From: Candidatus Nanohaloarchaea archaeon
GTDB taxonomy: Archaea > Nanohalarchaeota > Nanosalinia > Nanosalinales > Nanosalinaceae
Direction of reading: 5' to 3'
Assembly: GCA_041640055.1 (NCBI GenBank)
Contig: JBEQAZ010000001.1
Span: 6,931 to 70,930 of the forward strand
DNA length: 64,000 nucleotides
Shown: positions 25,200 to 44,707 of the stretch, one piece after another
Layout: each line of letters begins with the position of its first letter
Numbering within the stretch: the first letter of the stretch is position 1
The notes under the pieces: generated by a model
Database searches by the model: none
What the model was told of the DNA's origin: nothing
What the model saw: only the letters and a program-made list of their open reading frames with translations
Position numbers and translations under genes: made by a program

Positions 25200-25205
25200 G
25201 TGAAA

Positions 25206-25807: not shown

Positions 25808-25842
25808 GGCTACTGCGGTTTCGTGGTTCAGTTCCGATCACC

Positions 25843-25974: not shown

Positions 25975-26005
25975 GGTAACTGTTTGGGTTCAGCTGGTTT
26001 TTATT

Positions 26006-26212: not shown

Positions 26213-26221
26213 AGTAAATTT

Positions 26222-27682: not shown

Positions 27683-27721
27683 GAATTACTCTTAGAGTTT
27701 CTTTATTGTAAAAGGTATCGT

Positions 27722-29143: not shown

Positions 29144-29144
29144 G

Positions 29145-31622: not shown

Positions 31623-33887
31623 TTACACCTGTCTTTCCAGCCATTCTTCCCATCTCGCCATTATTCTCTCAGTTTCCTGGCCGCCATACTCTTTTCTTAC
31701 TTCTTCAGCGATTGTATGGTACTTCTGATTTGCCTTTACAACGAACTCTGCCTCCAGAAGTTCGTCGTTACCTGTTTCATCTGCTTTGTCAGCTATCTTC
31801 TGTTTCATATCCTTTCGTAGCTGAATATTATCCCATACTGCTTCCCAGTTGTTCTTCCATTCACGGATATTGGAGGCGATACGGTTCAGAATAAGCGATT
31901 CGCCGTTAAGAAGTGTATCTGTCGGTACAAGTTCATCTTTATTGCTGTCGTAACGCATGAGCTCGACGAAAGCGTTCTCCTCCTGGGGATCATCAGTCCA
32001 CGATTTTCTGACCTCGGTGATGCCTGTTACTCTTCGGTATGTCTCCAGGCCGTCCGGACTTCGGATCTTGTTGACCGATACGATGATATCTGTAGCCTTG
32101 AATGAAGTTTTCGGCACATTCAGGTCGTTGACTACTCGGTCGAATACGGAGTATGCGTCTTCTCCGTGGATCGTTCCTCCAACGAAGTTTGCTACTGCCC
32201 CTACACGCATAGCTTCGTAGAGTGCCTGTGCTTCATCAGATCGTACTTCTCCGATGACAAGCGCTGAGTCTCCTAGTCGTAGTGATGTTCTGATGGCCTC
32301 ATCTGCTCCTAATTCGCTTTCGTTCTGTGTGATGACGGATTGTGATTTCATCCGTTCGATGTTGTATCCGAGGTCTTTCATCTGCGGAATCGGAAGCTCT
32401 AGCGTGTCCTCTACAGTGACTATGCGGTGGTTCTTCATGATTTCGAGCATGGATGCGGATAGTATGGATGTTTTTCCGGCTCCTCGTGTTCCTGCGAATA
32501 GTACGGAGCGGTTTCCGTCGACGATGAATGATAGTAGTGCGGCTCCGAGTGCGTTGATCATACCGTTGTTGACGAATAATGGTAGGGTCCATGCTCGTGA
32601 TCGGTGGCGTCGGAAAGCGAACGCTAATCCTTCGGGCGACAGGCTTTCCTGAATGACTGCTACTCGGGCTCGGCCTCCTTCGACCTCTGTCTCGGTATCC
32701 AGTACTGGGTTGGCTTCGTCTAGCGGGCGGCCTGACTGTATTCTGAACCGGGTTGCCCATGACTCTGCTTCGTCTCTTGTCGGTATCAGGTTGGTTTTAC
32801 ATTCCTCGTAGTCCTGATGGCTGATGTACATCGGTGAGTCTCCAATCGGGGAGTTGATGTAGACATCCTGTACTTTCGGATCTGAAAGCAGGAGTTCCAG
32901 TACTCCGAGTCCGGAGGTGTACCTGTTTAGTATGCTGGTTAGTTCTTCCAATTCTTCCATATCCAGGTTCATGTCCATTTGTGCGGCGATATCTCTTAGC
33001 ATGTCTTTTCCGATGTTCTCGAATACATCCCTCATTCTTTCCGGCTCCGCGAACTCTCCTGACTCTGGTTTATGTGATGCCATGTAGCGTCGTGCTGCGT
33101 CAAGTAGCTTGTATTTCTCTTCTGAAAGGTTGAATTCCGGCGGGTCGATGTGGTATACTGGTCGGGTTTTTCCTGGTACGCGGTAGATGGTTACTTCTAC
33201 ATCGTTACGGGCTTCGTACCGGTCGATCTCCTCTCCTTTTTCGGGAGGGAGGCTCATGAACTTCGTAAGCATGAAGTTCGGCCGAACCAATGGGTGGAAG
33301 AACTCTCTGTATACATCCCTGTCCCCTACATGGAAGCCTGTAATGTACTCTTGTGCCTGATCGATTATCTGGCATTCTTCTATTCTTTCTCTTATCGGTT
33401 TGAGGACATCCTGTACGAAGTATTTGTTGCATCTCTTCTGCTGTGGGTAACCTTCCTTCATTTTCTGTTTCATGTGGCGCTCTTTTCTCTTTATCTTAAC
33501 ATATGCGCCGACCGGGTCTCTTCTAAGCCGGTCTAGAACTATTTTCTGTACTTCCGGTAGTTCTTCTGAGTAGAGTTCCTGGCATTTATTTCTGTCGATG
33601 TCCTGTGAGAGGTATCCTTGGTTTGCGATGTCTTCAATCGCTGTCGATATTTCTTTAAGTAGTTCTATCTGTTCTTCGGTGTATTCGTAGTCTCTGGATT
33701 CTGATAGTACTACAGAGCTTGCTCCAGGTACTTCTTCCAGTATATCTACTACTCTACCCATTACTTCGGGGTAGTCCTCTATTGAGGCTCCGTAGACTGA
33801 TCCCAGAGTGTTTACTTCTATTGTGCCGGATTCCTCGTCGTATTCGTAGTCGAAAATGTCTTTGTCTGAAGGGGGCATACCAAGCAT
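31623..33887 (-). CDS. Type II/IV secretion-family ATPase (FlaI/PilB/VirB11-like) with a long N-terminal extension
   Basis: It has Walker A FAGTRGAGKTS, the Asp-box region IVTVEDTLELPIP, Walker B-like ALVIGEVR and the His-box region GGTIHGE. At 754 aa it is far longer than the roughly 550 aa typical of FlaI. Confidence 0.9.
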   Translation of the reverse strand: MLGMPPSDKDIFDYEYDEESGTIEVNTLGSVYGASIEDYPEVMGRVVDILEEVPGASSVVLSESRDYEYTEEQIELLKEISTAIEDIANQGYLSQDIDRNKCQELYSEELPEVQKIVLDRLRRDPVGAYVKIKRKERHMKQKMKEGYPQQKRCNKYFVQDVLKPIRERIEECQIIDQAQEYITGFHVGDRDVYREFFHPLVRPNFMLTKFMSLPPEKGEEIDRYEARNDVEVTIYRVPGKTRPVYHIDPPEFNLSEEKYKLLDAARRYMASHKPESGEFAEPERMRDVFENIGKDMLRDIAAQMDMNLDMEELEELTSILNRYTSGLGVLELLLSDPKVQDVYINSPIGDSPMYISHQDYEECKTNLIPTRDEAESWATRFRIQSGRPLDEANPVLDTETEVEGGRARVAVIQESLSPEGLAFAFRRHRSRAWTLPLFVNNGMINALGAALLSFIVDGNRSVLFAGTRGAGKTSILSASMLEIMKNHRIVTVEDTLELPIPQMKDLGYNIERMKSQSVITQNESELGADEAIRTSLRLGDSALVIGEVRSDEAQALYEAMRVGAVANFVGGTIHGEDAYSVFDRVVNDLNVPKTSFKATDIIVSVNKIRSPDGLETYRRVTGITEVRKSWTDDPQEENAFVELMRYDSNKDELVPTDTLLNGESLILNRIASNIREWKNNWEAVWDNIQLRKDMKQKIADKADETGNDELLEAEFVVKANQKYHTIAEEVRKEYGGQETERIMARWEEWLERQV

Positions 33888-33920: not shown

Positions 33921-34331
33921 ATGCCAGATCAAGACCTGATCAACCAGATTATTAACCGGGTGAACGATTTCAACCGGCGGATGAGAGATTTAGAGGAGAA
34001 AATCCGGAACTTGACTGCCCGAGTTAATACTCTTGACGATACGATTATGAACAAGACCAAGACCCTGAATAATGACTTACAGGAACTTGATGACGAAATA
34101 GGAGATCTCAGGGACCGTATCGCAAATCTAGAGGTCGATGTAAAAGAAATCAACCGTGAAAAGCGTAAGTATGTAAGCCAGCAGGAACTTGAGGAGATGG
34201 AAAACTACATGGACTTGATGAATCCTGTGAATTCTAATTTCACGACTGAGAAGCAGGTTGATCAGAAGATCGATAACAATTCTCTAAGTGAAGAGGAAGT
34301 TGAGAAACTGATCGAGCAGAAGATGAATTAA
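33921..34331 (+). CDS. Coiled-coil protein
   Basis: 136 aa with heptad repeats (RMRDLEEKIRNLTARVNTLDD...). It is divergent from the ATPase across a 33-nt spacer. Confidence 0.55.
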   Translation: MPDQDLINQIINRVNDFNRRMRDLEEKIRNLTARVNTLDDTIMNKTKTLNNDLQELDDEIGDLRDRIANLEVDVKEINREKRKYVSQQELEEMENYMDLMNPVNSNFTTEKQVDQKIDNNSLSEEEVEKLIEQKMN

Positions 34332-34390: not shown

Positions 34391-35314
34391 ATGAAATTTG
34401 AACTTTTTGGACGCCTCGGCGACGACAACGAGACCGAAGATCAGCAAGCAGAGGATTCAGGAGGATTCAATGCCGGATACGATGACCAAGGAGGCGACTT
34501 CCAGACAGGTGGAGACCTAGATAGAACAGTTCAGAACCTATTTGATCAGGGTTACTCAGAAGACGAAATCAAGAATGAACTGCAGGGTCAGTACTCTGCG
34601 ACAGAAGTTTCTCAGGCAATTAATCGCGTCGTAACTTCTAACGCCACAGGAAATGGTAATAGTGGCGGCGGAGGCGGAAACAGTGACGGACCCGAACCTA
34701 TGACACCTTACCAAGGAGATGAAGACGCAGTCAGTCCTATGGACGAAGGTTATGACGGAGATGACCAGAATAGTGGTGGAGGCGGAAACGGTATGGAAAA
34801 CAATATGAACCAGAACAACAATCAGAATACTATGATGCAAGGGCAGCAAAACCAGCAGTCTCAACAGCAGCAACAGCAACCTCTGCAGTCAGGGGGTCAG
34901 AGCCAGAAAGGAAGTGCTAACTCTGGTAATGTAGATCCTGCTGTCGAGGAACTTATCGAAACTATAATCGCAGAGAACTTCGAGAAGGTTGAAGCAGAGT
35001 TCCATAATGTATATGAAGAACTTGATACCTTCGCAGATGAAATCGAGGATCTGAAACAGAGAGTGCACGATCTTGAGGTCAGAGATGATGAAGATCAGCA
35101 GCAGTTCGTTCAGAAGATCGACGAGGTAGAAGAACATATCGATGAGTACGAGTCCCGTATCGGAGGACTTGAGAAAGCCTTCCAGCAGGTACTTCCATCA
35201 CTCGTTGACAATGTAAGAGAGCTTACAGACCTAGTCCAAGACTTAAAGGATGAAGGAGATGTAAGTGAGGGAGACTTCGAGGACATGGATATGGAAGGTC
35301 TTAAGAAAGAGTAA
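34391..35314 (+). CDS. Low-complexity (G/N/Q-rich) plus acidic coiled-coil protein
   Basis: 307 aa. The central stretch NGMENNMNQNNNQNTMMQGQQNQQSQQQQQQPLQSGGQSQ is followed by a coiled-coil C-terminus. Confidence 0.55.
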   Translation: MKFELFGRLGDDNETEDQQAEDSGGFNAGYDDQGGDFQTGGDLDRTVQNLFDQGYSEDEIKNELQGQYSATEVSQAINRVVTSNATGNGNSGGGGGNSDGPEPMTPYQGDEDAVSPMDEGYDGDDQNSGGGGNGMENNMNQNNNQNTMMQGQQNQQSQQQQQQPLQSGGQSQKGSANSGNVDPAVEELIETIIAENFEKVEAEFHNVYEELDTFADEIEDLKQRVHDLEVRDDEDQQQFVQKIDEVEEHIDEYESRIGGLEKAFQQVLPSLVDNVRELTDLVQDLKDEGDVSEGDFEDMDMEGLKKE

Positions 35315-35390: not shown

Positions 35391-35903
35391 TTATTCCGAA
35401 CTTCCTGCTGTCAGAGCCACGAGTGCTACTATCATCAGCAGGATGAGTATCGGCATGACTATTTCCTCGAATACCTTGTTCCAGTTCTCTATATCCGGGA
35501 TTATGTTAGGTATTCCGAAGAAGTTTGCAATTATAGCAAGTAGTGCTACTACAAATATCCCTGCACCAAGGAGGAGTGGTAGGGATCTATCATTATCCTG
35601 AAGGTTCTCTAGGTCATATCCTGCTACTCCGAGCACAATCATCAAGCCGATAACCGCAAATATGCCGAAGGTGGCCGCTGCAACTACATTAGTTAGAAGG
35701 CCTGCCGGGATGAACATGTAGGCTCCTCCTCCAGCCATGAAAGCTATAGCAAGAGATATCGAGCCATTGACAAACTCATCTTCGCTTATGAACTGGTACT
35801 TCTCTAGTACGCCGTAGCTTACTGCTAGCACGAGCAGCCATGGGAAGAAGAACCTGAATATCTGCATTTCTGCCATGGTCTGGATTATCTGTTCAAAAAC
35901 CAT
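35391..35903 (-). CDS. Polytopic membrane protein (paralog of 35910..36521)
   Basis: 170 aa. IQTMAEMQIFRFFFPWLLVLAVSYGVLEKY parallels LEIMAENGFFSGLLPFVVAYVLFFLTLKRI of the upstream gene. Confidence 0.55.
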   Translation of the reverse strand: MVFEQIIQTMAEMQIFRFFFPWLLVLAVSYGVLEKYQFISEDEFVNGSISLAIAFMAGGGAYMFIPAGLLTNVVAAATFGIFAVIGLMIVLGVAGYDLENLQDNDRSLPLLLGAGIFVVALLAIIANFFGIPNIIPDIENWNKVFEEIVMPILILLMIVALVALTAGSSE

Positions 35904-35909
35904 GGTCTT

Positions 35910-36521
35910 CTATCCTCCTCCAGAACCGCCGGCTAGTTCATCGAACAGTTTTCCAGGGGAGAAGCTGCTGCTCGAGCTGCTGTCTGAGAGTGTCCAGTAA
36001 ATCAGTCCTGCTACTACCAGTATCCATATCAGCCCCGAGTCAACTGTGAAGTTGATGAACTGTTCCAAGCCCTCACTGTTGATATTATCAGGTATGAAAA
36101 TCTTTCCTCCTCCTGTTACAAAGAAGGCCAGTACTACGATACCAGTCAGTATCAATCCGTAGATACCTTTTGCATCATCGTTACTCGTGCCTATATCCAG
36201 TCCGATGAATGCTAGTACTACTAGTAATCCGAGTAGTCCTATTACTGATACCGCTATTGCTCCGAGGTAGTCTACGAAGAATGTCTGGTAGGCCGGGTTC
36301 CTTACTAGGAACTGTGCTACGAAGAATGCGAATACTACTGAAAGTGTCGCTGCGAACTTGTTGTCTCCGTCCTCTTCCTCAAATAAAGGTATTCGTTTGA
36401 GTGTGAGGAAGAAGAGTACATAGGCCACTACGAAGGGCAGGAGCCCTGAGAAGAATCCGTTCTCCGCCATTATTTCTAGGAGGTTGTTGAACCCTCCTGC
36501 ACCTGCGTCGTGGCTGCTCAC
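35910..36521 (-). CDS. Polytopic membrane protein with a Ser/Gly-rich C-terminal tail
   Basis: 203 aa, ending ...SDSSSSSSFSPGKLFDELAGGSGGG. There is a 6-nt gap on either side. Confidence 0.55.
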   Translation of the reverse strand: MSSHDAGAGGFNNLLEIMAENGFFSGLLPFVVAYVLFFLTLKRIPLFEEEDGDNKFAATLSVVFAFFVAQFLVRNPAYQTFFVDYLGAIAVSVIGLLGLLVVLAFIGLDIGTSNDDAKGIYGLILTGIVVLAFFVTGGGKIFIPDNINSEGLEQFINFTVDSGLIWILVVAGLIYWTLSDSSSSSSFSPGKLFDELAGGSGGG

Positions 36522-36527
36522 TTTCTA

Positions 36528-36785
36528 TTATTCACCTTGTTGATCTAGGTAGTGGCTTACTTTTCTGTTTAGTAGCCATAGTTCTCTACCTATGATCATT
36601 AGCCCAAGCATTACGATCCATGGCTGGATGTCTCTTCCGAATGAGACCATGGTTGCTTCTTGTGATGAGTAGAATGCTGTCCATAGAGCTACTGCAATCG
36701 CTCCGAATGACAGGATTACGATTACGAGTTCGTCTAGGATATTTTCTACATTGTATAGATAGTTTCGGAATCTTTTGGAGTCCAT
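36528..36785 (-). CDS. Small 2-helix membrane protein
   Basis: 85-aa hydrophobic ORF within the tightly spaced operon. Confidence 0.5.
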   Translation of the reverse strand: MDSKRFRNYLYNVENILDELVIVILSFGAIAVALWTAFYSSQEATMVSFGRDIQPWIVMLGLMIIGRELWLLNRKVSHYLDQQGE

Positions 36786-36788
36786 AGT

Positions 36789-36929
36789 TTAGAAACCTCC
36801 TCCCATGCCGCCCATTCCTCCTGAGCGCATTCCTAAGAGTTTTGCGATTACGAATCCTGCTACTAGGCCTACGACGGCGGCTTCTGGTTCAGCCATCAGG
36901 CCGTTCATTATTTGGTCAGGTAATGCCAT
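36789..36929 (-). CDS. 46-aa membrane micro-protein with a Gly/Met-rich tail, not in the ORF track
   Basis: I translated it by hand: MALPDQIMNGLMAEPEAAVVGLVAGFVIAKLLGMRSGGMGGMGGGF*. Its core AAVVGLVAGFVI matches AAAIVGLVVGFVI of 41745..42014. It ends 3 nt before the next gene. Confidence 0.45.
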   Translation of the reverse strand: MALPDQIMNGLMAEPEAAVVGLVAGFVIAKLLGMRSGGMGGMGGGF

Positions 36930-36980
36930 TGTTGTTTTGAGCCTCTGATAAGGATGATTACGAACTACTTGTTTAAATAA

Positions 36981-38027
36981 TTAAACCGATGCTGCCTTCT
37001 GCGTTGTATCTGGTGTAGCCGGAGTTTCAGGAGTTTGAGGTGTTTCTCTGGTTTCCTGTACTTCCAGATGCTCCATATATCTGTCTTCCGCTAATTCATA
37101 GTCTTCATTCTCTGTTCTGGCTGCGATGTAATTTGAAATCTCTTGGTTCACATCTACTTCTTCAGAGTACATTTCATTGATAGCAGTACCTGGGTCGGAG
37201 TTAACTTCTAAGCCGACTATCTCTCCGTCAGGAGTCTTCATATAGTCAAATGCGGCTACCTCCAGCCCTTCAGTTGCCTGTATGGCTGCGTCGATTTCAT
37301 AGTCAAATATTTCTCCCGGATCTGTGTATTCTCCGCCGTTAGCTATATTGTTAGCTATTCCGTCTCCATCTTCACGGGCAGCTATCTCCAGCACTGTGGC
37401 ATCTTCTCCATCACCTAGCACTAGTGCACGACAATCTTTGAAGCCCTCTTCATGCGGTACTGATTCTTCTAACCTATATTCTTCTCTCTCAAACTCTTCA
37501 AGATAATTTTCCAGGGTTTCTGAGTCTTCTATTCTACTTATTCCGTTTCCAAAAGAGCTTCTTGTTGGTTTTGCGATAACCTGATCGTCTTCAAGTACCT
37601 CAAAGGCTTCTTCTTCAGAATAGCTTTCGGCCATTCGGACATTTTGGAGATTACTAAATGATTCTTCCAGCATTTCAGAGGTACGATTCTTATCGTTGTG
37701 GAACCAAGACATCAAAGGATCTTGTATAAAATCTATATCCTGGTCTTCTACGGCAGCTGAAACCTGCTCAGCCATTTTCTTGCTTTCTTCATCATTCATT
37801 CCTGAAGTGAATTTTTTGTGGCGATAGAAAACTGTTTGATCATCTAATTTCTCTAATTCGTCTACAGATGATACATTGGTTACATCGTACCCCTGTTCAT
37901 CCAGTTCTTCTACAGTCTTTTTCCTGGTCGGGGTGTCTACATCGCCTGCGTAGAGTATATCTGCCTCTTCGATATCTGTTTCTCTTATTATATCATGTAC
38001 GGTTCTGTCGAAGAGCCATCCAAACAT
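36981..38027 (-). CDS. ATP-grasp ligase (RimK-like)
   Basis: ATP-grasp blocks are VIAKPTRSSFGNGISRIED, DCRALVLGDG, NNIANGGEY and AAFDYMKTPDGEIVGLEVNSDPG (the E-x-N metal site). The C-terminal tail is Pro/Thr-rich (TPQTPETPATPDTT). Confidence 0.7.
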   Translation of the reverse strand: MFGWLFDRTVHDIIRETDIEEADILYAGDVDTPTRKKTVEELDEQGYDVTNVSSVDELEKLDDQTVFYRHKKFTSGMNDEESKKMAEQVSAAVEDQDIDFIQDPLMSWFHNDKNRTSEMLEESFSNLQNVRMAESYSEEEAFEVLEDDQVIAKPTRSSFGNGISRIEDSETLENYLEEFEREEYRLEESVPHEEGFKDCRALVLGDGEDATVLEIAAREDGDGIANNIANGGEYTDPGEIFDYEIDAAIQATEGLEVAAFDYMKTPDGEIVGLEVNSDPGTAINEMYSEEVDVNQEISNYIAARTENEDYELAEDRYMEHLEVQETRETPQTPETPATPDTTQKAASV

Positions 38028-38061
38028 GTAAATGTATTTGTTACATGAAAGTTATAAAATT

Positions 38062-39687
38062 TTAGAATGAGTCCTCCCAGTTATCTAGCCCCTGGATAGA
38101 CTCATCGATAGCGGCTATAAGGTCCTGATCATTATCAATCTCGTGATTGTTAGAGTTATGTAGGGCTCTTAAATCATTTCTCAACTGTTCAAGCTTAGTC
38201 TCGATTGGACCATCAGGTCTAATCAGGTTATCAACATCAGGGTCAGGAAAGTTAGAGTTATTACAACCGTTAGCGTTATTCTCTAGGTCGTTGTTTATTA
38301 TAGTTCTGATTTCTGCTAGATAGGTGTGTATATCCCCGGATCCCGAAGTGCTTTGTATGTCACCAATTCTTGATTCTATTTCTGTCTTTTCGGAGTTGCT
38401 TATCTGAAGCTCATCCTTGAGAACCGATTTGAGATCTCTTAGTTGATCCTTTATATTATCTTTTCTGCTCTTCAGAGTCTGAAGACGGTTTTCTAAGGCC
38501 TGCTCATGTTCCTCCATCCTCCTAGCTCTGTTGAAAAGGCCTTCATCGTCTAACTCCTGAGCATAATCTTCAATTCTTTCCTCATAGTTCTCTACTTGAT
38601 CTACATCCTGCATCAAGAGATTGACTCCTTTTAATGATTTCGTGACCTGTTCAGCTTCTTTTATCAAAGTATTCAATTCGTCATCAAGATTAGAAGTTAC
38701 ATGCTCTTCCTTTTTCTCTATTCTTTCCACAGCATCTATTATAGTATCTAGTTCCTGTACCGCATCGGCTAGACCAAAGTTCTTGTATCTACTAGGAAGA
38801 TCCATAGAGCTTACATTGTCGTTCTGAAGATTTCCAATTCCCTGAATAATCATCTGCTTATCTAGATGCGGAGTGTTTAAGTTCGGTGTTGATGCAGGAG
38901 TATTACTCTTCAGAGTTGTAAGTTTGCCCCTAATATGATTTATCCCTGCAGTTAGGTACTTTATTCTGTTATTTACATTTTCATAGTCTCTGCTGGCGTT
39001 TTGAACACCGTTAATAGCATCGTTGATGTGGTCTATTTCATCGCTTAGATCCTGGGCGGCGTTACCCATCGCTCCTTCAATATGGTCATCAGAGTCATCT
39101 ATCTCTTGGACTATTGATTCAATCTCAGCTTCAGTCTGTCCGGGCTGATTCTGCACATTTCCATCGCCTATATTCCTTAGTCGTTCACCTGCTTCTCTTG
39201 CTTCCTGTATGCCTGTTTCAAGGGCTTTTCCTGTTTTTCCTGCTGTCCAAGCTGCACTTGCTGCTCCACCTCCTACTACTGCAATCAGGAGAGCGATTAC
39301 TCCGAAGAAGAGCGCTCCTACAAGCATCATCTGGATGTCCCAGACGAATCCCATCGCATGACCGGTGCCTAAGATAGATAATACTGTAAGAAGTGCGAGG
39401 ACAGCCAGAAGATTCTTTTTATCGTCATCCTGTACCCCGGAAGATTGGAGATTGAAGAGCTCCTCTATCTCGAGCTTTACTACGACCTTCTTCATAATCA
39501 TGTAGACAGAAAGCCAGATCAATCCGAAGGTAGCTGCAAGCCCTAGATTATGAACCATATCTTCGCTTCTTAATCCCAGAGCATTTATTATCCCGGCTAT
39601 ATCTGTTAAAGAAGTGCTACCGCCGTGATTAGCTGTTGCAATCGGTGTTACTAGTATAGTTAGAGTTGAAAGTAGTTTTTTCTTCAT
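38062..39687 (-). CDS. Signal-peptide/HGG-motif membrane protein with a long acidic coiled-coil domain (paralog 1)
   Basis: 541 aa. It starts MKKKLLSTLTILVTPIATANHGGS and has three hydrophobic helices (AATFGLIWLSVYMIM, LLAVLALLTVLSILG, LVGALFFGVIALLIAVVGGG). These are followed by about 380 aa of coiled coil. Confidence 0.6.
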   Translation of the reverse strand: MKKKLLSTLTILVTPIATANHGGSTSLTDIAGIINALGLRSEDMVHNLGLAATFGLIWLSVYMIMKKVVVKLEIEELFNLQSSGVQDDDKKNLLAVLALLTVLSILGTGHAMGFVWDIQMMLVGALFFGVIALLIAVVGGGAASAAWTAGKTGKALETGIQEAREAGERLRNIGDGNVQNQPGQTEAEIESIVQEIDDSDDHIEGAMGNAAQDLSDEIDHINDAINGVQNASRDYENVNNRIKYLTAGINHIRGKLTTLKSNTPASTPNLNTPHLDKQMIIQGIGNLQNDNVSSMDLPSRYKNFGLADAVQELDTIIDAVERIEKKEEHVTSNLDDELNTLIKEAEQVTKSLKGVNLLMQDVDQVENYEERIEDYAQELDDEGLFNRARRMEEHEQALENRLQTLKSRKDNIKDQLRDLKSVLKDELQISNSEKTEIESRIGDIQSTSGSGDIHTYLAEIRTIINNDLENNANGCNNSNFPDPDVDNLIRPDGPIETKLEQLRNDLRALHNSNNHEIDNDQDLIAAIDESIQGLDNWEDSF

Positions 39688-41279
39688 TATAGATCAGCGA
39701 ATTTGTTCAGTAGTCGTTCTTCGGCTGCTTCTTCCTGTTCGTTCTGCTGTTCGATTTTCTCTAGGTGCTCTCCAATCTTGTTAACATTATCCTGCATATT
39801 TTCCATTCTTCTCCAGGCTGTTGATGCATAATCGCTGTCACCGATGTTTTCCAAGACATTCTCCTCGAGAGCTTCTATCTGATTGAGTATTCTGCCGTCT
39901 TCTTTTACGAGTGTTTGAAGCTGCTGGATTTCTTCCTCTTCAAGTTTAATCTCGTTCTTGATTAGGTCTTGGGCTCTCTCGATGAGTTCTTCCAGTCTTT
40001 GTTCTTCACTCATTAGTTCCTGGTAGTAGCTCTTCATCTGCTCAATTTGTTTTTCTTCCTTTTCGGCTTCCTTGTATACTTTCTCACTGCCTATTTCCTG
40101 AGAAATACTTTCAAGGTACTCATCCAGTTCCTCAGCTTCTCCCATCTCCTGTTTGATCCTGCTGAGAAGGTTCTGTAGTACGATAAATTCCTCAAGCTTG
40201 TTGACTAGGATATGGACCTCATCCTCCATTTCTTCCTCTTCCTTGGTCTCCAGAGATTCGATAAGTTTGAGATCTTTCTGTACAGCCTGTAGATCCTCAT
40301 CTATTGTCTTGAGACCTTTGAAGCTGTCTACAAACCCTCCCGGAGCCGCCCGGTTTTCTGTTGCTCCTTTTCCTAAACCTGAAGCGGAGAGATTGTTCGG
40401 ATGCGCATTCTCCAACGAGCTATTAGCTTTGTTTAGTTCATTGTTAACTTCGTCTAATCGGCCCTTTAAATCCTTTATAGTTTTTTCTTCTTTCTGATCT
40501 TGGCCTATAACATGCTCTGCATCTTTTATAGCTCGCTCAAACTCATCCAGATCCTTCTTCATCATTCCGGAAAGAGTTTCTTCTGATGACTCCACAAGTT
40601 CGATTACCTTCTCTACATCATGGGCGGCCTGATCTGATTCCTGTTCAGGATCTTCACTTTGACCCGAAGTCACATCCTCTTCTTCATTTTCTGCTCTTGT
40701 TGCTACATCTTGAGCCTGACTGGTCCGTTCTCTAACCGCTTCGATATCTTGGTCATCGTACTCATCGCTGCCTGCGTTAGCTCCTTCATCGAGTTCATTT
40801 AATCCCCATGAACCTGATTTGGCAGCTTTCCCAGTTGAGAACATGAAGAGGCCTGCTCCTCCACCTAAAACCAGGATTATCAGCGAAGCAACTAGGAAGC
40901 CTACCCCCAGCAGCAATGTATCTTGTATAGTATTTATAGTGAATCCGAGGTAGGTATGTGATGCACCTGCTGCAGAAACAACTATCAGGAGAGATAGTAC
41001 TGCTCCTAGGTTTCTTCCGCCATCTCCTCCGTATGTGCCACCTCCCATGTTGAAGAGGTCTTCGAGTTCGAACCGTATGATCAGTTTCTTGATGATCATG
41101 TAGACTGTGAACCAGATTAGTGCGAATGTTGCTGCGGAGATTGCGATTTCTCTCCAGTTATCTACAGGAAAGGGGAAGTTGGAGATTAGACCGATTAGTC
41201 CTCCGGACCCTCCGTGGTTCGCGGTTGCGATTGATGTGAAAGCCAGTAAAAGTGAGGAGAAGATGGCTTTTTTGTTCAT
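39687..41279 (-). CDS. Signal-peptide/HGG-motif membrane protein with a long acidic coiled-coil domain (paralog 2)
   Basis: 530 aa. It starts MNKKAIFSSLLLAFTSIATANHGGS, then has AATFALIWFTVYMIIKKLIIRFELEDLFN. It is colinear with 38062..39687. Confidence 0.6.
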   Translation of the reverse strand: MNKKAIFSSLLLAFTSIATANHGGSGGLIGLISNFPFPVDNWREIAISAATFALIWFTVYMIIKKLIIRFELEDLFNMGGGTYGGDGGRNLGAVLSLLIVVSAAGASHTYLGFTINTIQDTLLLGVGFLVASLIILVLGGGAGLFMFSTGKAAKSGSWGLNELDEGANAGSDEYDDQDIEAVRERTSQAQDVATRAENEEEDVTSGQSEDPEQESDQAAHDVEKVIELVESSEETLSGMMKKDLDEFERAIKDAEHVIGQDQKEEKTIKDLKGRLDEVNNELNKANSSLENAHPNNLSASGLGKGATENRAAPGGFVDSFKGLKTIDEDLQAVQKDLKLIESLETKEEEEMEDEVHILVNKLEEFIVLQNLLSRIKQEMGEAEELDEYLESISQEIGSEKVYKEAEKEEKQIEQMKSYYQELMSEEQRLEELIERAQDLIKNEIKLEEEEIQQLQTLVKEDGRILNQIEALEENVLENIGDSDYASTAWRRMENMQDNVNKIGEHLEKIEQQNEQEEAAEERLLNKFADL

Positions 41280-41317
41280 GCAGTAGTTAATCCTCTCCTT
41301 CTTTAAATTAATTCACC

Positions 41318-41764
41318 TTAGAAGATGGCTTTGAATCCCCAGTAGAGAACTAGGAGTCCTACCCCTATGAATATTATGTAGGTGAGTCCTCCGAAGATTA
41401 CGAATATCAGTTCGTTGATATCTTGGAATAACTGGGTTGGAACCAGCATGAGTGAAACCGCCAGGGCGATCAGTGTAGCGTATTTGTTTCTCTGTTTTCT
41501 GGCCTGTTCTCTTTCACTGTGCCATTCGTCTTCAGCGCTTAATGCGAACTTGAGGGCTTGTTTCAGTCCGATCTGGAAGATGAAGAATATCAAGAGGAAT
41601 GGTGCTACAAGTTCGGTTAGTATTTCTGCCTGAGAATCGTAATGCGGTATCTGAAGGTTTTCGTATGGGTTTCCTCCGCCTCCGTGGAATGAAGCGGCAG
41701 CTGTTGAAACGGTTATCATTAGTAGTAGAATTATTGAGAGGTATTTAGTCAAAGTCGAAGTCAT
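41318..41764 (-). CDS. Short HGG-motif membrane protein (paralog 3, no coiled coil)
   Basis: I set the start at ATG 41764: MTSTLTKYLSIILLLMITVSTAAASFHGGGGNPYENL..., followed by 3 helices. The track start at 41857 would overlap 41745..42014 extensively. Confidence 0.5.
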   Translation of the reverse strand: MTSTLTKYLSIILLLMITVSTAAASFHGGGGNPYENLQIPHYDSQAEILTELVAPFLLIFFIFQIGLKQALKFALSAEDEWHSEREQARKQRNKYATLIALAVSLMLVPTQLFQDINELIFVIFGGLTYIIFIGVGLLVLYWGFKAIF

Positions 41765-42014
41765 CGCCGCCACCTCCCATGTCGCCGCCTCCGCCGATGT
41801 CTCCTCCACCGCTTCCGCCGCTACGAGCGTGTTTGATATAGGCTGGCAGCATATCATCGATTACAAAGCCGACTACAAGCCCGACTATCGCGGCTGCTGC
41901 GTATTCTCCTGGCAGTGGAAGTAATTTATCAAAGCTTCCTCCTAACATATCTGCTGCTCCGACTGCTGCGATAGAGGCTGTGGGATAGGCAACAAATTCC
42001 CAGGGGTCCTTCAT
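41745..42014 (-). CDS. Small membrane protein with a Gly/Asp-rich tail
   Basis: 89 aa, reading ...AAAIVGLVVGFVIDDMLPAYIKHARSGGSGGGDIGGGGDMGGGGDDFDFD. It is paralogous to the 46-aa ORF at 36789..36929. Confidence 0.5.
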   Translation of the reverse strand: MKDPWEFVAYPTASIAAVGAADMLGGSFDKLLPLPGEYAAAAIVGLVVGFVIDDMLPAYIKHARSGGSGGGDIGGGGDMGGGGDDFDFD

Positions 42015-42091: not shown

Positions 42092-42634
42092 TTATCGCGG
42101 CGATTCTGTGCCTTTCAATAACTTCTCTATCGATTTCAGAGTTTGGTCTGCTTGGCTTTGATGATTATCTACTTGCTGGATGATTTTTGCAGTTTCTCTC
42201 ATATCGCTTTCAGCAACCTTTTCATGCTCAATTTCATTTTTAATCTTCTGCTCGATATCGCTTATCTCTTTTTCTAGGCTTTCAGCTTCTGATAAAGCAG
42301 AATCCAAGTCACTTCTTAAAGCTTCAATCTCTTGCTGAATATCACCGTCATCACTGCCTCTCAAGTCCTCCCACAGATTCTTAGACTGCTGTTTAGCTTT
42401 TTTCTTCTTCAGATCAGAAACTATCTGTCCAATTTCTTGCTCTTTTTGCTCTAAATCATCAAGCTTTTTCTCCGCATCTTTTGCTTCTTCGATGACAGCC
42501 TGGTCCATCTTTATGGTGCTTTTCATCTCCTCAATTTCTTCTTTGGAGTCCTCAATGATTTGCTCTAACTCCTTCTGTTCTTCTTTTTCTCTTCCAAGTG
42601 TGTCGTTGATTGTATCCATTATACCATCTGACAT
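42092..42634 (-). CDS. Acidic coiled-coil protein
   Basis: 180-aa E/K/D/Q-rich heptad sequence. No family recognised. Confidence 0.5.
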   Translation of the reverse strand: MSDGIMDTINDTLGREKEEQKELEQIIEDSKEEIEEMKSTIKMDQAVIEEAKDAEKKLDDLEQKEQEIGQIVSDLKKKKAKQQSKNLWEDLRGSDDGDIQQEIEALRSDLDSALSEAESLEKEISDIEQKIKNEIEHEKVAESDMRETAKIIQQVDNHQSQADQTLKSIEKLLKGTESPR

Positions 42635-42692: not shown

Positions 42693-42923
42693 TCATGAAA
42701 ACTTGCCCAGCCTTTCCAAAGTCTCCAGTATTCCCCAAGCATAGATTACCGATTCCCAGGCGCGTATATAGTCTTCTTCCGCTAGAAAATGGTAGGTGTC
42801 ATCTCTGTATGCTTCGACATTCTCCATCTGCTCAACATGGCTATCTCTGTCATCAATCCGGTTTTCAAGTTTCTCAAGCCATTTCCGGGTTTCTTCCTCC
42901 AGTTTCTCTTGCGTCTTGTTCAT
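42693..42923 (-). CDS. Small helical protein (DUF357-like, tentative)
   Basis: 76 aa. ...YRDDTYHFLAEEDYIRAWESVIYAWGILETLERLG resembles the archaeal DUF357 pattern. It overlaps the diphthine synthase stop by 4 nt. Confidence 0.45.
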   Translation of the reverse strand: MNKTQEKLEEETRKWLEKLENRIDDRDSHVEQMENVEAYRDDTYHFLAEEDYIRAWESVIYAWGILETLERLGKFS

Positions 42924-43618
42924 CGGAAATCCTCTAGGTTCTCATCTTCGACATGGGAGGTTTCTCCTATTATAATAATGGAGTGAGGTGTTTCGCCAGT
43001 TGTAGTGAGATCATCTAGTTTGCCGTAGCTTATCTTCTGATTGTCTAGGCTGGCTCTTTCCAGGAAAATCGCTTCTTTTTCCGCTAGTTCTTTATCCATC
43101 TCAACCAGTTTATCTCTTGCTTCATCGGCATCATAATCGATATCAAGAAGCACCAAAGTATGAAGACCGACAGATAAATTTTCATTAATGTACTCTGCGA
43201 TTGATTCCGGTTTCATATCCTTGGGGAGAGTTACCGTTCTTCCGAATTTGTAAATACTTAAACCGGTTTCAGCGATCGATGTAAAAATCGAGGGAGCATG
43301 AACAACATTTGTTTCTATTCCTTGTTTCTCTGCTCTTCTCTTTATATCGTAATGAGTCGTAGCAGTCAATGCATCACCCGAAACAAGAAATGCAGTCTCC
43401 TGACTCTTGGCTGACTCAACTATAGCATCCTGTTGTTCCACTTCATCACGGGAAAGTTTCTGGATCTCCTGACCTGTTTTTTCCTCTATCTTCTTTAAAT
43501 CAACTGTTTCAGTATTCGTGTAGAACTCTGCAAATACTTTTTCAGAGTTTTCTATCGCTTTCAATCCTTTTACAGTTATTTCGTCGTCATCAAGACCCAT
43601 TCCAATAAGGTGAAGCAT
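42920..43618 (-). CDS. dphB: Diphthine synthase (Dph5/DphB)
   Basis: MLHLIGMGLDDDEITVKGLKAIENSEKVFAEFYTN..., ...AFLVSGDALTATTH and ...GLHTLVLLDI are typical tetrapyrrole-methylase-fold Dph5 blocks. Confidence 0.9.
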   Translation of the reverse strand: MLHLIGMGLDDDEITVKGLKAIENSEKVFAEFYTNTETVDLKKIEEKTGQEIQKLSRDEVEQQDAIVESAKSQETAFLVSGDALTATTHYDIKRRAEKQGIETNVVHAPSIFTSIAETGLSIYKFGRTVTLPKDMKPESIAEYINENLSVGLHTLVLLDIDYDADEARDKLVEMDKELAEKEAIFLERASLDNQKISYGKLDDLTTTGETPHSIIIIGETSHVEDENLEDFR

Positions 43619-43675: not shown

Positions 43676-44707
43676 ATGAAACAGGAAAAACTAGAGAAAA
43701 AAGCTGAGGACCTGTTTGAAAGACAGGGATTCAGGATTAAGAGAGAAGACGATGTCTTCAGGGCCTGTAATGAAGGAGAAGAACTAAACTTCCAGGCATT
43801 CAGCTCAGAGAAATACAGTGTAGAAGAAGTCAGAGAAAAAATTGAAGACAATATAGACACAATTTTTGTGGATGAAGCTCTTAGAGAAATCAAAGAAATG
43901 ATCGAAACTGATGTATCCGTCTTGAAAGAGGAAGAAGACAGCAAAAGCTATGATTTACCCAGTTTTGAGCTTATCGGAGATATCGCAGTCATTAATGATC
44001 TGGATGGAAAAGATGAAACCGAAGTAGTCGAGGGAATAACAGAAAACCACCCTCATATAGAAACCATACTATTGAAATCAGAGCAACTGTCAGGCGAGTT
44101 CAGAGTCGGCGGATACCAAGGACTGTACGGGGAAGAAACAGAAACAATACATAAGGAGTTTGGAGTAGATATCAAAGTCGATCCAACAAAGGCTTACTAC
44201 TCGGAACGGTTTTCTACGGAGAGAAAAAGAGTAGCAGACCAGATCAAACCCGGAGAAAAATTATTAGTGATGTTCGCCGGCGTAGGACCGTTCGCACTGA
44301 TCGCAGCCAGACACTCAGGGGCAGAGAAGATAGTAGCAGTTGAGAAAAACCCTGAAGCGTGCGAATACCTGAAGGAAAATATCGAACTGAACAGTTTTGA
44401 GGGCCGCATCGAAGCCAGATGCGGGGATGTTGAGGAGATACTTCCAGAGCTGAAAAACAGTTTTGACCGGATAATAATGCCTCTACCCGGAAAAGCCGAT
44501 GAATTCCTCGACCTGGCAGAATCTGTCGCATCTGAAAACGCGGTGATTCATTACTACCGTTTCATGGAGGAAGGAAACGGAGAAATTTTGAAATCAGAGA
44601 TAAAGAGCATAATGACCGGAAGCTACCGGATAAAAGAGATAGTAAAATGCGGAGAGAAGAGCCCCTCCACGGACAGAGTATGTGTCGATATTGTCACTCG
44701 AAAGTAG
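43676..44707 (+). CDS. trm5: tRNA (guanine37-N1)-methyltransferase Trm5 / TYW2 (Met-10+ like) family
   Basis: It contains SFELIGDIAVIN, YYSERFSTERKRV, the SAM-binding block LVMFAGVGPFALIAA and the catalytic-loop region FDRIIMPLPG. Confidence 0.85.
   Translation: MKQEKLEKKAEDLFERQGFRIKREDDVFRACNEGEELNFQAFSSEKYSVEEVREKIEDNIDTIFVDEALREIKEMIETDVSVLKEEEDSKSYDLPSFELIGDIAVINDLDGKDETEVVEGITENHPHIETILLKSEQLSGEFRVGGYQGLYGEETETIHKEFGVDIKVDPTKAYYSERFSTERKRVADQIKPGEKLLVMFAGVGPFALIAARHSGAEKIVAVEKNPEACEYLKENIELNSFEGRIEARCGDVEEILPELKNSFDRIIMPLPGKADEFLDLAESVASENAVIHYYRFMEEGNGEILKSEIKSIMTGSYRIKEIVKCGEKSPSTDRVCVDIVTRK

What the first reader, a model, noticed from the sequence alone, without database searches (positions are those of the whole stretch)
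35391..42014. Ten-gene membrane-protein cluster built around an ATP-grasp ligase, with no recognisable system
These are co-directional minus-strand genes with gaps of 1-51 nt or overlaps. In transcription order they are as follows. An 89-aa membrane protein with a Gly/Asp tail (41745..42014). Three HGG-motif membrane proteins (41318..41764, 39687..41279, 38062..39687). A RimK-like ATP-grasp ligase (36981..38027). A 46-aa membrane protein with a Gly/Met tail (36789..36929). An 85-aa two-helix protein. Two paralogous polytopic proteins (35910..36521 and 35391..35903). Three products end in glycine-rich tails: GGSGGGDIGGGGDMGGGGDDFDFD, GGMGGMGGGF and ELAGGSGGG. ATP-grasp enzymes of the RimK/LysX type ligate amino acids onto protein C-termini. 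A ligase nested among membrane proteins with unusual flexible C-termini therefore suggests a tail-modification or envelope-assembly module. This is inference, and no gene other than the ligase matches a family I recognise.
Basis: partly seen in the sequence, partly recalled or inferred. Interest (0 to 1): 0.7.

Follow-up and report, generated by a model that had tools for sequence, protein, structure and literature searches.

The report
Pilus-linked membrane cluster with optional ligase
The ten genes are a real, conserved set of membrane and coiled-coil proteins that always sits beside type IV pilus-like assembly genes in nano-sized salt-loving archaea, and the amino-acid ligase in the middle is an optional extra, not the core.

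Summary
All ten minus-strand ORFs exist at the stated coordinates. They are tightly packed and under purifying selection (dN/dS 0.00-0.12). The window comes from a Nanohaloarchaeon.

In every related locus that is long enough, the order is p1-p2-[coiled-coil protein(s) ± ligase]-p6-p7-p8-p9. Two opposite-strand coiled-coil genes follow, then a FlaI/CpaF-like ATPase, a FlaJ/TadC-like platform and pilin-like genes. These loci include Ca. Nanohaloarchaeum antarcticus. This matches the type IV pilus-like "CCP locus" noted by Hamm et al. 2024, so a recognisable system is present.

The ligase is a divergent RimK/LysX/ArgX-type ATP-grasp enzyme with intact catalytic residues. It is present in only 9 of 28 distinct loci that could be judged, absent in 18 and decayed in one. 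The Gly-rich tails of p1 and p6, and the -GE end of p7, are the same with or without it.

Predicted topology puts the coiled coils and all tails in the cytoplasm.

My best reading is a membrane base with a cytoplasmic scaffold for the neighbouring pilus-like machine, with the ligase as a dispensable accessory modifier. Tail modification stays possible in ligase-bearing lineages but has no comparative support. The p8/p9 family extends to other DPANN-like contigs and has no known fold or family.

The parts
42092..42634 (-). p0: soluble 180-aa coiled-coil protein, a variable upstream member of the cluster
   Evidence: It lies 69-85 nt upstream of p1 in the window, L002, L006, L009 and L024. It is related to the C-terminal part of the coiled-coil proteins.
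41745..42014 (-). p1: 89-aa membrane protein. Its cytoplasmic Gly-rich linker ends in an acidic/aromatic tip (...DDFDFD).
   Evidence: The tail type (..DFDF[DE] or ..DMDFG[E]) is conserved in all loci that hold p1, with or without the ligase. Basic residues follow the transmembrane helix. dN/dS is 0.08.
41318..41764 (-). p2: 148-aa protein with a signal peptide and 3 transmembrane helices. It has the same predicted topology as the membrane part of p3/p4.
   Evidence: Hydropathy and charge analysis. Found in all loci that reach this far.
39687..41279 (-). p3: signal peptide, 3 transmembrane helices and a long acidic coiled coil predicted to be cytoplasmic (a membrane-anchored CCP)
   Evidence: Paralog of p4. 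Topology. In L002 the gene is split into a membrane part and a soluble coiled coil that has no signal peptide.
38062..39687 (-). p4: second membrane-anchored coiled-coil protein, in the variable middle region
   Evidence: In L009, L041, L043 and L052 this position holds soluble coiled-coil proteins of 739-853 aa with no transmembrane helix or signal peptide.
36981..38027 (-). Divergent RimK/LysX/ArgX-type ATP-grasp ligase. It is optional in the cluster and has a disordered C-terminal tail ending in ..ASV.
   Evidence: Family and fold: Pfam RimK; TIGR00768 scores 56 bits, below its cut-off; best PDB profile match is RimK 7qyr at E=3e-5; AF2 model pLDDT 73.7, with Foldseek matches to ArgX, LysX and RimK. 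Catalytic residues: K153, E187, E188, R200, N227, G231, G232, D261, E274 and N276 are invariant in 8 divergent copies. Distribution: present in 9 loci, absent in 18, fragment in 1.
36789..36929 (-). p6: 46-aa single-pass membrane protein with a basic juxtamembrane stretch and a cytoplasmic Gly/Met-rich tail ending in an aromatic residue
   Evidence: Conserved in more than 40 loci, including an uncalled ORF at L006 11144..11293. dN is 0 against L007.
36528..36785 (-). p7: 85-aa two-helix membrane protein. It is the best conserved member and nearly always ends in ...GE-COOH, predicted to be cytoplasmic.
   Evidence: Alignment A2 has 27 invariant columns. C-terminal ends are tabulated. Topology.
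35910..36521 (-). p8: 203-aa protein with 5 transmembrane helices, belonging to the p8/p9 family
35391..35903 (-). p9: 170-aa protein with 5 transmembrane helices. The family extends beyond Nanohaloarchaeota.
   Evidence: An exhaustive HMMER search gives 273 representatives at E<=1e-3. Tandem copies sit next to ccA, ccB, T2SSE and T2SSF in the low-GC contigs L054 and L056. The AF2 model has pLDDT 68 and no PDB fold match.
34391..35314 (+). ccA: 307-aa cytoplasmic coiled-coil protein on the opposite strand, a conserved partner
   Evidence: Present in every locus that reaches it, and in L054 and L056. It has weak FlaC_arch and DUF7310 hits. The Nha. antarcticus ortholog NAR1_11171 was detected by proteomics.
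33921..34331 (+). ccB: 136-aa coiled-coil protein, a conserved partner
   Evidence: The ortholog NAR1_11172 was detected by proteomics.
31623..33887 (-). FlaI/CpaF-like secretion ATPase (T2SSE), 754 aa
   Evidence: Pfam T2SSE at E=4e-16. The NCBIfam FlaI model scores 141 bits, below its cut-off. It is adjacent in all loci.
29436..31616 (-). FlaJ/TadC-like membrane platform (T2SSF), 726 aa
   Evidence: Pfam T2SSF scores 27.2 bits against a cut-off of 25.2. It is adjacent in all loci.
21205..29360 (-). Run of small and large secreted proteins, several with class III (prepilin-like) N-termini
   Evidence: Read directly from the sequences. Examples are ...HRKG-VQAIPFIIGVIIALLLL...RRKG-NFETVALAIVTFML and ...NRKG-LDKPVFIVAAITLAII. 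No family match was found.

Best explanation
The ten genes form one arm of a conserved Nanohaloarchaeal locus of about 20 kb. The other arm encodes a type IV pilus-like machine: a FlaI/CpaF-like ATPase, a FlaJ/TadC-like platform and pilin-like proteins.

The conserved core is p1, p2, at least one membrane-anchored coiled-coil protein (p3/p4), p6, p7, p8 and p9, plus the opposite-strand coiled-coil pair ccA and ccB. Predicted topology puts the long acidic coiled coils, the Gly-rich tails of p1 and p6, and the -GE end of p7 on the cytoplasmic side.

I infer three things:
- These proteins build a membrane-embedded base with a cytoplasmic coiled-coil scaffold around or beside the pilus ATPase and platform. 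The role would be comparable to the FlaX or ArlC/D/E scaffolds of archaella.
- The short tethered tails, each a flexible Gly-rich linker with an acidic/aromatic tip, act as docking peptides for soluble partners.
- The machine serves host contact.

The ATP-grasp ligase is an active RimK/LysX/ArgX-like enzyme that lies in the variable middle of the cluster. It is a dispensable, lineage-specific accessory. Where present, it most likely adds an amino acid to a carboxylate of a cytoplasmically exposed cluster protein. p7 (...GE-COOH) is the best candidate and p1 the second. This would be a tuning modification, not the organising function.

Shown: gene reality, conserved order, linkage to the pilus-like genes, patchy ligase distribution, ligase fold and catalytic residues. 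Inferred: topology, scaffold role, docking role of the tails, ligase substrate.
For: Conserved order and pilus linkage:
- The order p1-p2-[CCP +/- ligase]-p6-p7-p8-p9-(ccA, ccB)-T2SSE-T2SSF holds in all loci long enough to show it. These are L001-L053, including NAR1_11 of Ca. Nha. antarcticus.
- The link to T2SSE/T2SSF survives rearrangement in two distant low-GC contigs. These carry 3-4 tandem p8/p9-like genes, SP-TM-coiled-coil genes, ccA and ccB.

Cytoplasmic placement of coiled coils and tails:
- Topology follows from hydropathy and flanking basic residues.
- Natural variants in which the coiled coil is a separate protein lack any signal peptide or transmembrane helix: L002 7397..8389, and the 739-853 aa proteins of L009, L041, L043 and L052.

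Ligase as an optional accessory:
- It is present in 9 distinct loci, absent in 18 and a fragment in 1.
- Losses are scattered inside the ligase-bearing clade of a p7+p8+p9 tree.
- The L015 remnant is truncated and has the Mg-binding Asp replaced.
- The tails are identical in type with and without the ligase.

Ligase as an active enzyme:
- Fold and catalytic residues are intact, and dN/dS is 0.10-0.12.

Published support:
- CCP, ccA, ccB and the ATPase orthologs were detected in the Nha. antarcticus proteome (PMC6642349 Table S4).
- The locus type is described in PMC11291902.
Against: - No physical or functional link between the cluster and the pilus genes has been shown. The two are separate, convergently arranged transcription units.
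- The housekeeping genes Dph5, DUF357 and Trm5 are just as stably adjacent, even in L054 and L056. Adjacency alone is therefore weak evidence of function.
- Topology rests on simple hydropathy and the positive-inside rule. It disagrees with the published suggestion that the CCPs resemble viral attachment proteins (PMC11291902).
- p8/p9 have no fold or family match, so no molecular role can be assigned to them.
- Absence of the ligase from a locus is not absence from the genome. Nha. antarcticus has RimK-type genes elsewhere.
Confidence: 0.5

Rival explanations
1. The cluster is a tail-modification module organised around the ligase, which adds amino acids to the Gly-rich or acidic C-termini of p1, p6 or p8.
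For: - The ligase's closest structures, ArgX/LysX and RimK, all act on C-terminal carboxylates of small proteins.
- When present, the ligase is always inside the variable middle of the cluster, between p2 and p6, on the cluster's strand. In most loci it lies directly upstream of p6. This holds across copies only 26-34% identical.
- The p1, p6 and p7 tails are predicted to be cytoplasmic.
- p7 ends in an acidic residue in 9 of 9 ligase-bearing loci. L013, with an intact ligase, ends ..SQE, while its relative L015, with a decayed ligase, ends ..ENN.
Against: - 18 of 28 distinct loci lack the ligase and keep the same tails.
- Close relatives differ in ligase presence with identical p1 tails (L024 versus L025).
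- The last residue of p1 varies (D, E, F, N) even among ligase-bearing loci.
- p6 ends in F, M or A, and the p8 tail is not conserved.
- No coiled-coil protein C-terminus co-varies with the ligase.
- The acidic end of p7 is also kept in 16 of 18 ligase-minus loci.
Confidence: 0.2
2. The ligase is a functionally unrelated passenger. It would be a small-molecule or other-protein ligase lodged in the variable middle of the cluster.
For: - Its distribution is patchy and it has been lost repeatedly.
- The region between p2 and p6 is the variable part of the locus, holding 1-3 coiled-coil genes and other inserts.
- Nha. antarcticus keeps RimK-type genes elsewhere in the genome.
Against: - The same region and orientation are kept across very divergent copies, under purifying selection.
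- Gaps to the neighbouring genes are short, 34 and 51 nt.
- No relatives were found outside this context among 5.8 billion proteins or in viral contigs.
Confidence: 0.2
3. The membrane and coiled-coil cluster is an independent envelope system, for example for membrane remodelling or a cell-cell bridge with the host. It would sit next to the pilus genes only through frozen gene order.
For: - It is a separate transcription unit, convergent with ccA.
- Unrelated housekeeping genes (Dph5, DUF357, Trm5) are equally syntenic across the same loci.
Against: - Adjacency of p8/p9-like genes, ccA/ccB and T2SSE/T2SSF persists after rearrangements and insertions in L054 and L056.
- Only one of the four secretion-ATPase loci of Nha. 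antarcticus carries the cluster.
Confidence: 0.2
4. This is a graspetide-type RiPP cluster, with p6 or p1 as precursor peptides cross-linked by the ATP-grasp enzyme and exported by the membrane proteins.
For: Graspetide ligases (PsnB, MdnC) appear among the weaker structural and sequence matches. Small ORFs flank the ligase.
Against: - p1 and p6 are transmembrane proteins.
- The p6 tail has no Thr, Ser, Lys, Asp or Glu core for ester or amide cross-links.
- Both genes persist in all ligase-minus loci.
- The best matches are ArgX, LysX and RimK, not graspetide ligases.
Confidence: 0.02

Closest known systems
Type IV pilus-like 'CCP' loci of cluster-2 DPANN archaea (Hamm et al. 2024, Nat Commun, PMC11291902; proteome in Hamm et al. 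2019, PMC6642349)
   Same: - Same organism group and the same locus. The Nha. antarcticus copy (L050, NAR1_11:165651-185902) runs from DphB (NAR1_11162) to the intein-bearing ATPase (NAR1_11173).
- It combines CpaF-like and TadC-like genes with coiled-coil proteins.
- The CCP, ccA, ccB and the ATPase were detected by proteomics.
   Different: - In the text and supplements I could read, the paper describes only the ATPase, the platform and the coiled-coil proteins. It mentions neither the small membrane proteins p1, p2 and p6-p9 nor any ATP-grasp gene.
- It suggests the coiled-coil proteins resemble viral attachment proteins. My topology analysis places the coiled coils in the cytoplasm.
- I could not confirm whether this is their 'Locus 1' or 'Locus 2'. 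The absence of GroEL, GatE and Mpg nearby suggests Locus 2.
RimK (ribosomal protein S6 poly-glutamate ligase) and LysX/ArgX (LysW amino-group-carrier ligases)
   Same: - ATP-grasp fold, with best structural matches 3vpb, 5k2m, 3vpd, 7qys and 5zct.
- Pfam RimK domain.
- Conserved Lys, Arg, the N..GG motif and the Asp and Glu-x-Asn Mg ligands.
- From established knowledge, all these enzymes ligate an amino acid to a carboxylate at the C-terminus of a small protein.
   Different: - It scores far below the NCBIfam cut-offs for rimK_fam (56 against 143 bits) and LysX (40 against 276 bits).
- No LysW-like gene or lysine/arginine biosynthesis genes were found among the neighbours scanned.
- It has an extra N-terminal region and a disordered C-terminal tail with a conserved (S/A)(A/P)(V/I/L) end.
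- It is embedded among membrane proteins.
Cytoplasmic scaffolds of the archaellum motor (FlaX/ArlX ring in Crenarchaeota; ArlC/D/E in Euryarchaeota)
   Same: This is a functional analogy only. Both involve membrane-anchored or soluble coiled-coil proteins encoded beside a FlaI-type ATPase and a FlaJ-type platform. ccA has a weak FlaC_arch hit at E=0.0025.
   Different: - No significant sequence match was found.
- No FlaH/KaiC-like gene or FlaF/FlaG genes were detected among the flanking genes scanned.
- The ATPase scores well below the FlaI equivalog cut-off, 141 against 550 bits.
- p1, p2 and p6-p9 have no counterpart in archaellum operons.

Membership tests
ATP-grasp superfamily, RimK/LysX/ArgX branch | ATP-grasp fold | tested here: met
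   The AF2 model has pLDDT 73.7 and pTM 0.75. Foldseek matches ArgX 3vpb at E=2.5e-13 (TM 0.62/0.75), and LysX and RimK at about 1e-10. The Pfam RimK domain scores 37.7 bits against a cut-off of 21.
ATP-grasp superfamily, RimK/LysX/ArgX branch | ATP- and Mg-binding residues: Lys, Glu-Glu hinge, Arg, the N..GG motif, Asp and Glu-x-Asn | tested here: met
   K153, E187, E188, R200, N227, G231, G232, D261, E274 and N276 are invariant in 8 copies only 26-58% identical. They align to the corresponding motifs of RimK 7qyr.
RimK proper (S6 glutamate ligase, TIGR00768) | Score above the curated family cut-off | tested here: not met
   56.4 bits against a cut-off of 143.4.
RimK proper (S6 glutamate ligase, TIGR00768) | Substrate is a bacterial-type ribosomal protein S6 ending in Glu-Glu | not testable with these tools
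   From established knowledge, archaea lack a bacterial bS6 homolog. No whole genome was available to search.
LysX/ArgX (TIGR02144) | Score above the cut-off, and a neighbouring LysW carrier with lysY/Z/J/K genes | tested here: not met
   40 bits against a cut-off of 275.6. The neighbours scanned within about 10 kb on either side are membrane, coiled-coil, pilus and tRNA/EF-2 modification genes.
Type IV pilus-like (Tad/archaeal T4P) locus | Secretion ATPase of the VirB11/FlaI/CpaF family adjacent to a TadC/FlaJ platform | tested here: met
   Pfam T2SSE at E=4e-16 and T2SSF at 27.2 bits against a cut-off of 25.2. The pair is adjacent in all related loci.
Type IV pilus-like (Tad/archaeal T4P) locus | Pilins with class III signal peptides | tested here: inconclusive
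   Several downstream ORFs have a [KR]G motif followed by a hydrophobic stretch, read by eye. No family hit was found and no dedicated predictor was run.
Type IV pilus-like (Tad/archaeal T4P) locus | Prepilin peptidase (PibD/FlaK) in the genome | not tested
   Not searched. Only a 64-kb window was available.
DPANN CCP/T4P-like locus (Hamm et al. 2024) | Coiled-coil protein genes next to CpaF-like and TadC-like genes, conserved in Nanohaloarchaeota including Nha. antarcticus | tested here: met
   L050 (NAR1_11) has the same gene order. Locus tags NAR1_11162-11173 match the published tables.
Archaellum operon | FlaH, FlaF, FlaG and archaellins present, and the ATPase reaching the FlaI equivalog score | tested here: not met
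   The FlaI model scores 141 bits against a cut-off of 550. None of the flanking genes scanned matches any other archaellum family.
Graspetide (omega-ester/amide RiPP) cluster | Precursor peptide with a Thr/Ser/Lys and Asp/Glu core, strictly coupled to the ATP-grasp ligase | tested here: not met
   The p6 tail is Gly/Met-rich and lacks such a core. p1 and p6 persist in 18 ligase-minus loci.

The most novel reading that the evidence does not exclude
p1-p9, ccA/ccB and the FlaI/FlaJ-like pair together would form a previously uncharacterised, DPANN-specific host-contact machine. Its cytoplasmic face would consist of membrane-anchored coiled coils and short tethered Gly-rich tails with acidic/Phe tips. 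In some Nanohaloarchaeal lineages a LysX/RimK-like ligase would modify the C-terminal carboxylate of one of its membrane subunits, most plausibly the invariant -GE end of p7. That would be the first membrane-anchored substrate of this enzyme class and a post-translational switch on a symbiont's attachment apparatus.
Probability: 0.15. Interest if true: 0.75.

Novelty: new variant of a known kind. Interest (0 to 1): 0.45.

Why it matters
Nanohaloarchaea and other DPANN archaea live attached to host cells, and the molecular basis of that contact is largely unknown. This locus is conserved across the phylum and is expressed in the one well-studied culture. So far it has been discussed only in terms of its ATPase, platform and coiled-coil proteins.

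This analysis adds three points:
- Seven further conserved membrane proteins belong to the locus.
- The coiled coils are probably cytoplasmic, not surface adhesins.
- One protein family, p8/p9, reaches into other DPANN-like contigs.

These give concrete targets for cryo-ET, proteomics and genetics. The ligase offers a natural presence/absence comparison between close relatives, which could test whether C-terminal amino-acid ligation tunes the machine. If the ligase proves to be a passenger, the result is still useful, because it removes a misleading 'organising enzyme' from the annotation.

Tried and rejected
- **Family searches.** Pfam and NCBIfam scans of all ten proteins found only the ligase and coiled-coil noise.
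- **p9 fold.** The AF2 model of p9 (pLDDT 68) had no PDB match in Foldseek; the best E was 1.6.
- **p8/p9 Pfam scan.** A member-by-member scan of 43 diverse p8/p9 relatives gave only weak DUF2070 hits in 7 members. I do not treat these as homology.
- **Ligase relatives.** Two searches of the 5.8-billion-protein collection returned only 13 clusters, all Nanohaloarchaeal. The genome-contig scan returned 2 loci because its patterns were too specific. The viral-contig scan returned none.
- **Exact look-up.** The look-up of encoding contigs did not hold the window's own ligase.
- **A second ATP-grasp gene at 44749..45924.** This was not supported: BLASTP E=0.6, hhalign probability 6%, and no PDB hit. 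The equal-length 391-aa gene next to p1 in L001 is an unrelated coiled-coil protein.
- **Co-variation with the ligase.** I looked for a tail or a coiled-coil C-terminus that tracks ligase presence and found none.
- **Graspetide reading.** Rejected on tail composition and distribution.
- **Literature.** Searches found no mention of an ATP-grasp gene in this locus.

Full report
**Observation**

Their spacing in transcription order is -20, 38, -1, 34, 51, 3, 6 and 6 nt.

The window is Nanohaloarchaeal. It has about 44% GC and very acidic proteins, and its nearest named relatives are 'Candidatus Nanohaloarchaea archaeon'.

Of the ten proteins only one has a family assignment. The ORF at 36981..38027 matches Pfam RimK (E=2e-9, above the gathering score) and, below cut-off, NCBIfam rimK_fam and LysX.

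p3 and p4 are clear paralogs (E=7e-33). p8 and p9 are weak ones (E=1e-4). p1 and p6 share a transmembrane motif.

All ten genes, including the 46-aa and 85-aa ORFs, have dN/dS of 0.00-0.12 against two relatives. They are real genes.

The 'HGG motif' sits directly behind an A-x-A signal-peptide site and is lost in more distant orthologs. I read it as part of a Gly-rich mature N-terminus, not a functional signature.

**Surroundings**

Downstream on the same strand lies a type IV pilus-like set. Two opposite-strand coiled-coil genes, ccB at 33921..34331 and ccA at 34391..35314, separate it from the cluster. The set contains:
- a 754-aa FlaI/CpaF-like ATPase;
- a 726-aa FlaJ/TadC-like platform;
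- a run of proteins, several with prepilin-like N-termini.

Upstream are a soluble coiled-coil gene (p0), DUF357, diphthine synthase and Trm5.

**Comparative evidence**

I collected related loci in three ways:
- contigs encoding ligase homologs;
- contigs encoding p9 homologs;
- a metagenome scan seeded with the highly conserved p7, which gave 41 loci including contig NAR1_11 of Ca. Nanohaloarchaeum antarcticus.

I built profiles from the first loci and searched all six-frame ORFs with them. Every locus long enough to show it has the order p1-p2-[coiled-coil protein(s) ± ligase]-p6-p7-p8-p9-(ccA, ccB opposite)-ATPase-platform.

Counting distinct loci by p7 sequence, the ligase is:
- present in 9;
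- absent in 18;
- a truncated remnant in 1, with the Mg-binding Asp replaced (L015);
- undecidable in 15 short contigs.

On a p7+p8+p9 tree the ligase-bearing loci fall in one large clade, plus L006 separately. Ligase-minus loci are nested inside that clade: L016, L025, L029 and the decayed L015. L024 and L025 are close relatives with identical p1 tails, and only L024 has the ligase.

The region between p2 and p6 is the variable part of the locus. It holds one to three coiled-coil genes, sometimes soluble ones of 739-853 aa, with or without the ligase.

**Tails**

- The p1 tail is a Gly-rich linker ending in ..DFDF[DE] or ..DMDFG[E].
- The p6 tail is basic, then Gly/Met-rich, ending in an aromatic residue or Met.
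- p7 ends in ...GE.

All three are conserved whether or not the ligase is present. The last residue of p1 varies (D, E, F, N) even among ligase-bearing loci. The p8 tail is not conserved. No coiled-coil C-terminus co-varies with the ligase.

The only hint in favour of a substrate is p7. It ends in an acidic residue in 9 of 9 ligase-bearing loci, but also in 16 of 18 ligase-minus loci. L013, with an intact ligase, ends ..SQE, while its relative L015, with a decayed ligase, ends ..ENN. This is a lead, not evidence.

**The ligase**

Eight copies only 26-58% identical to the window protein keep K153, E187/E188, R200, N227..G231 G232, D261 and E274-x-N276. These residues align with the ATP- and Mg-binding motifs of RimK 7qyr.

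An AF2 model (pLDDT 73.7, pTM 0.75) matches these structures best:
- the ArgX-LysW complex 3vpb (E=2.5e-13);
- LysX/ArgX 5k2m;
- LysX 3vpd;
- RimK 7qys and 5zct.

Graspetide ligases and Ddl score lower. Residues 315-348 are predicted to be disordered but end in a conserved (S/A)(A/P)(V/I/L).

The family is very narrow. There are 13 clusters among 5.8 billion proteins, and none in viral contigs.

It is therefore an active enzyme of the class that ligates amino acids to protein C-terminal carboxylates. It fails the curated cut-offs for RimK and LysX proper and lacks their genomic partners.

**Topology**

Hydropathy and flanking charges predict the following:
- p2, p3 and p4 have a cleaved signal peptide, a short outside segment and three transmembrane helices, with the C-terminus inside. 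The long acidic coiled coils of p3 and p4 are therefore cytoplasmic.
- The basic residues after the transmembrane helices of p1 and p6 put their tails inside.
- Both ends of p7 are inside.

Natural variants support this. In several lineages the coiled coil is a separate protein with no signal peptide and no transmembrane helix.

This is at odds with the published suggestion that the coiled-coil proteins resemble viral attachment proteins.

**Beyond Nanohaloarchaeota**

An exhaustive HMMER search with the p9 family found 273 representatives at E<=1e-3. Two distant members lie on low-GC contigs (30% and 39% GC). There, 3-4 tandem p8/p9-like genes and SP-TM-coiled-coil genes sit beside ccA (both contigs), ccB (found in L056 only) and the pilus genes: both ATPase and platform in L056, the platform alone in the stretch of L054 that was fetched. 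This holds despite rearrangements and inserted genes. These contigs have no ligase and no detectable p1, p6 or p7.

A shared transmembrane signature, hhLP[FW]hLhhhhhYGhLxK, recurs in p2/p3/p4-like and p8/p9-like proteins (read directly).

p9 has no fold match and no Pfam family.

**Literature**

Hamm et al. 2024 (PMC11291902) report two type IV pilus-like loci with coiled-coil proteins conserved across cluster-2 DPANN. They note that several of the encoded proteins are made.

The Nha. antarcticus copy of the present cluster runs from DphB (NAR1_11162) to the intein-bearing ATPase (NAR1_11173). NAR1_11166, 11171, 11172 and 11173 appear in the 2019 proteome table (PMC6642349).

That genome has no ligase in the cluster. 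It does carry two RimK-type genes about 120 genes away (NAR1_11292 and NAR1_11293).

I found no mention of the small membrane proteins, or of an ATP-grasp gene in this locus.

**Interpretation**

The cluster is not built around the ligase. The best-supported reading is that p1-p9 with ccA and ccB form a membrane base and cytoplasmic scaffold for the adjacent pilus-like machine. The tethered Gly-rich tails would act as docking peptides. The ligase would be a dispensable accessory that, where present, probably modifies a cytoplasmic carboxylate of a cluster protein.

The linkage to the pilus genes is shown only by conserved adjacency. Unrelated housekeeping genes are equally syntenic, so I put this explanation at about 0.5.

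A passenger ligase and a pilus-independent envelope system are comparable rivals.

**Verdict**

This is a real, conserved and only partly described locus. It is a new variant of a known kind: the DPANN type IV pilus-like/CCP locus, with a new divergent RimK/LysX-like subfamily as an optional member. Interest is moderate.

Noticed in passing
L050 12783..16532 (NAR1_11) and L026 12758..16510: In these two lineages the FlaI-like ATPase gene is 3.7 kb instead of 2.26 kb. The L050 insert starts after ..VTVED and ends ..AHN|T. It carries LAGLIDADG-like motifs (LGLWLADGC, LRGLYSGDGY), so it is an intein with a homing endonuclease. [quoted passage not shown]
   Followed up: partly
window 36981..37076 (ligase residues about 317-348) and orthologs: After the ATP-grasp fold, the ligase has a conserved Y..HLEV motif and a disordered Pro/Thr-rich linker. 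Its C-terminus ends in (S/A)(A/P)(V/I/L) in very divergent copies (..ASV, ..APV, ..AEV, ..SAV, ..TSI, ..LAL). This looks like a short docking motif of unknown partner.
   Followed up: no
L015 9400..9756: This is a truncated remnant of the ligase, holding only the C-terminal 118 aa, with the Mg-binding Asp of the 'DY' motif replaced by Tyr. The related L013 from the same brine metagenome has an intact gene, so the loss appears to be caught in progress.
   Followed up: partly
window 44749..45924 (+): This 391-aa acidic protein next to Trm5 has stretches that resemble ATP-grasp motifs by eye (..VVEQPRADSQGDGI.., ..LGEPNASPG..). No test supports homology: BLASTP E=0.6, hhalign probability 6%, and no Pfam, NCBIfam or PDB hit. 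It is conserved in L001.
   Followed up: partly
window 42693..43618 and 43676..44707; L054 10500..12944; L056 1..226: DUF357, diphthine synthase (Dph5) and Trm5 stay adjacent to the membrane cluster in Nanohaloarchaeota. DUF357, Dph5 and Trm5 also lie beside the p8/p9-like genes in the distant low-GC contig L054, and a DUF357 gene lies about 8.6 kb from them in L056. In the window, Dph5 and DUF357 are on the same strand directly upstream of p0 and p1. The reason for this linkage is unknown.
   Followed up: no
window 41745..41850 (p1 tail) and 36789..36840 (p6 tail): The p1 tail (Gly-rich linker plus ..DMGGGGDDFDFD or ..GGDMDFGE) resembles in composition the flexible acidic/aromatic C-terminal tails of ribosomal stalk P proteins and bacterial SSB. 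That comparison is from memory. In the whole 64-kb window, only p1 and p6 have 8 or more Gly in their last 25 residues.
   Followed up: partly
L008 (JBLGBK010000001.1): A 129.6-kb contig carrying the complete Nanohaloarchaeal cluster is deposited as a MAG labelled 'Colwellia polaris'. This is probably a binning or labelling error.
   Followed up: no
window 48524..54715 (+): Two large secreted proteins, 1442 aa and 586 aa, carry PKD, CarboxypepD_reg, CARDB and other Ig-like domains. They are candidate surface or adhesion proteins near the pilus locus.
   Followed up: no
L002 6651..7388: In this lineage p3 is split. The membrane part ends in a Cys-rich, zinc-ribbon-like tail (..CSNCYKLNPQSAKTCNGSGCSNSL), and a separate 330-aa soluble coiled-coil gene follows it.
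   Followed up: no
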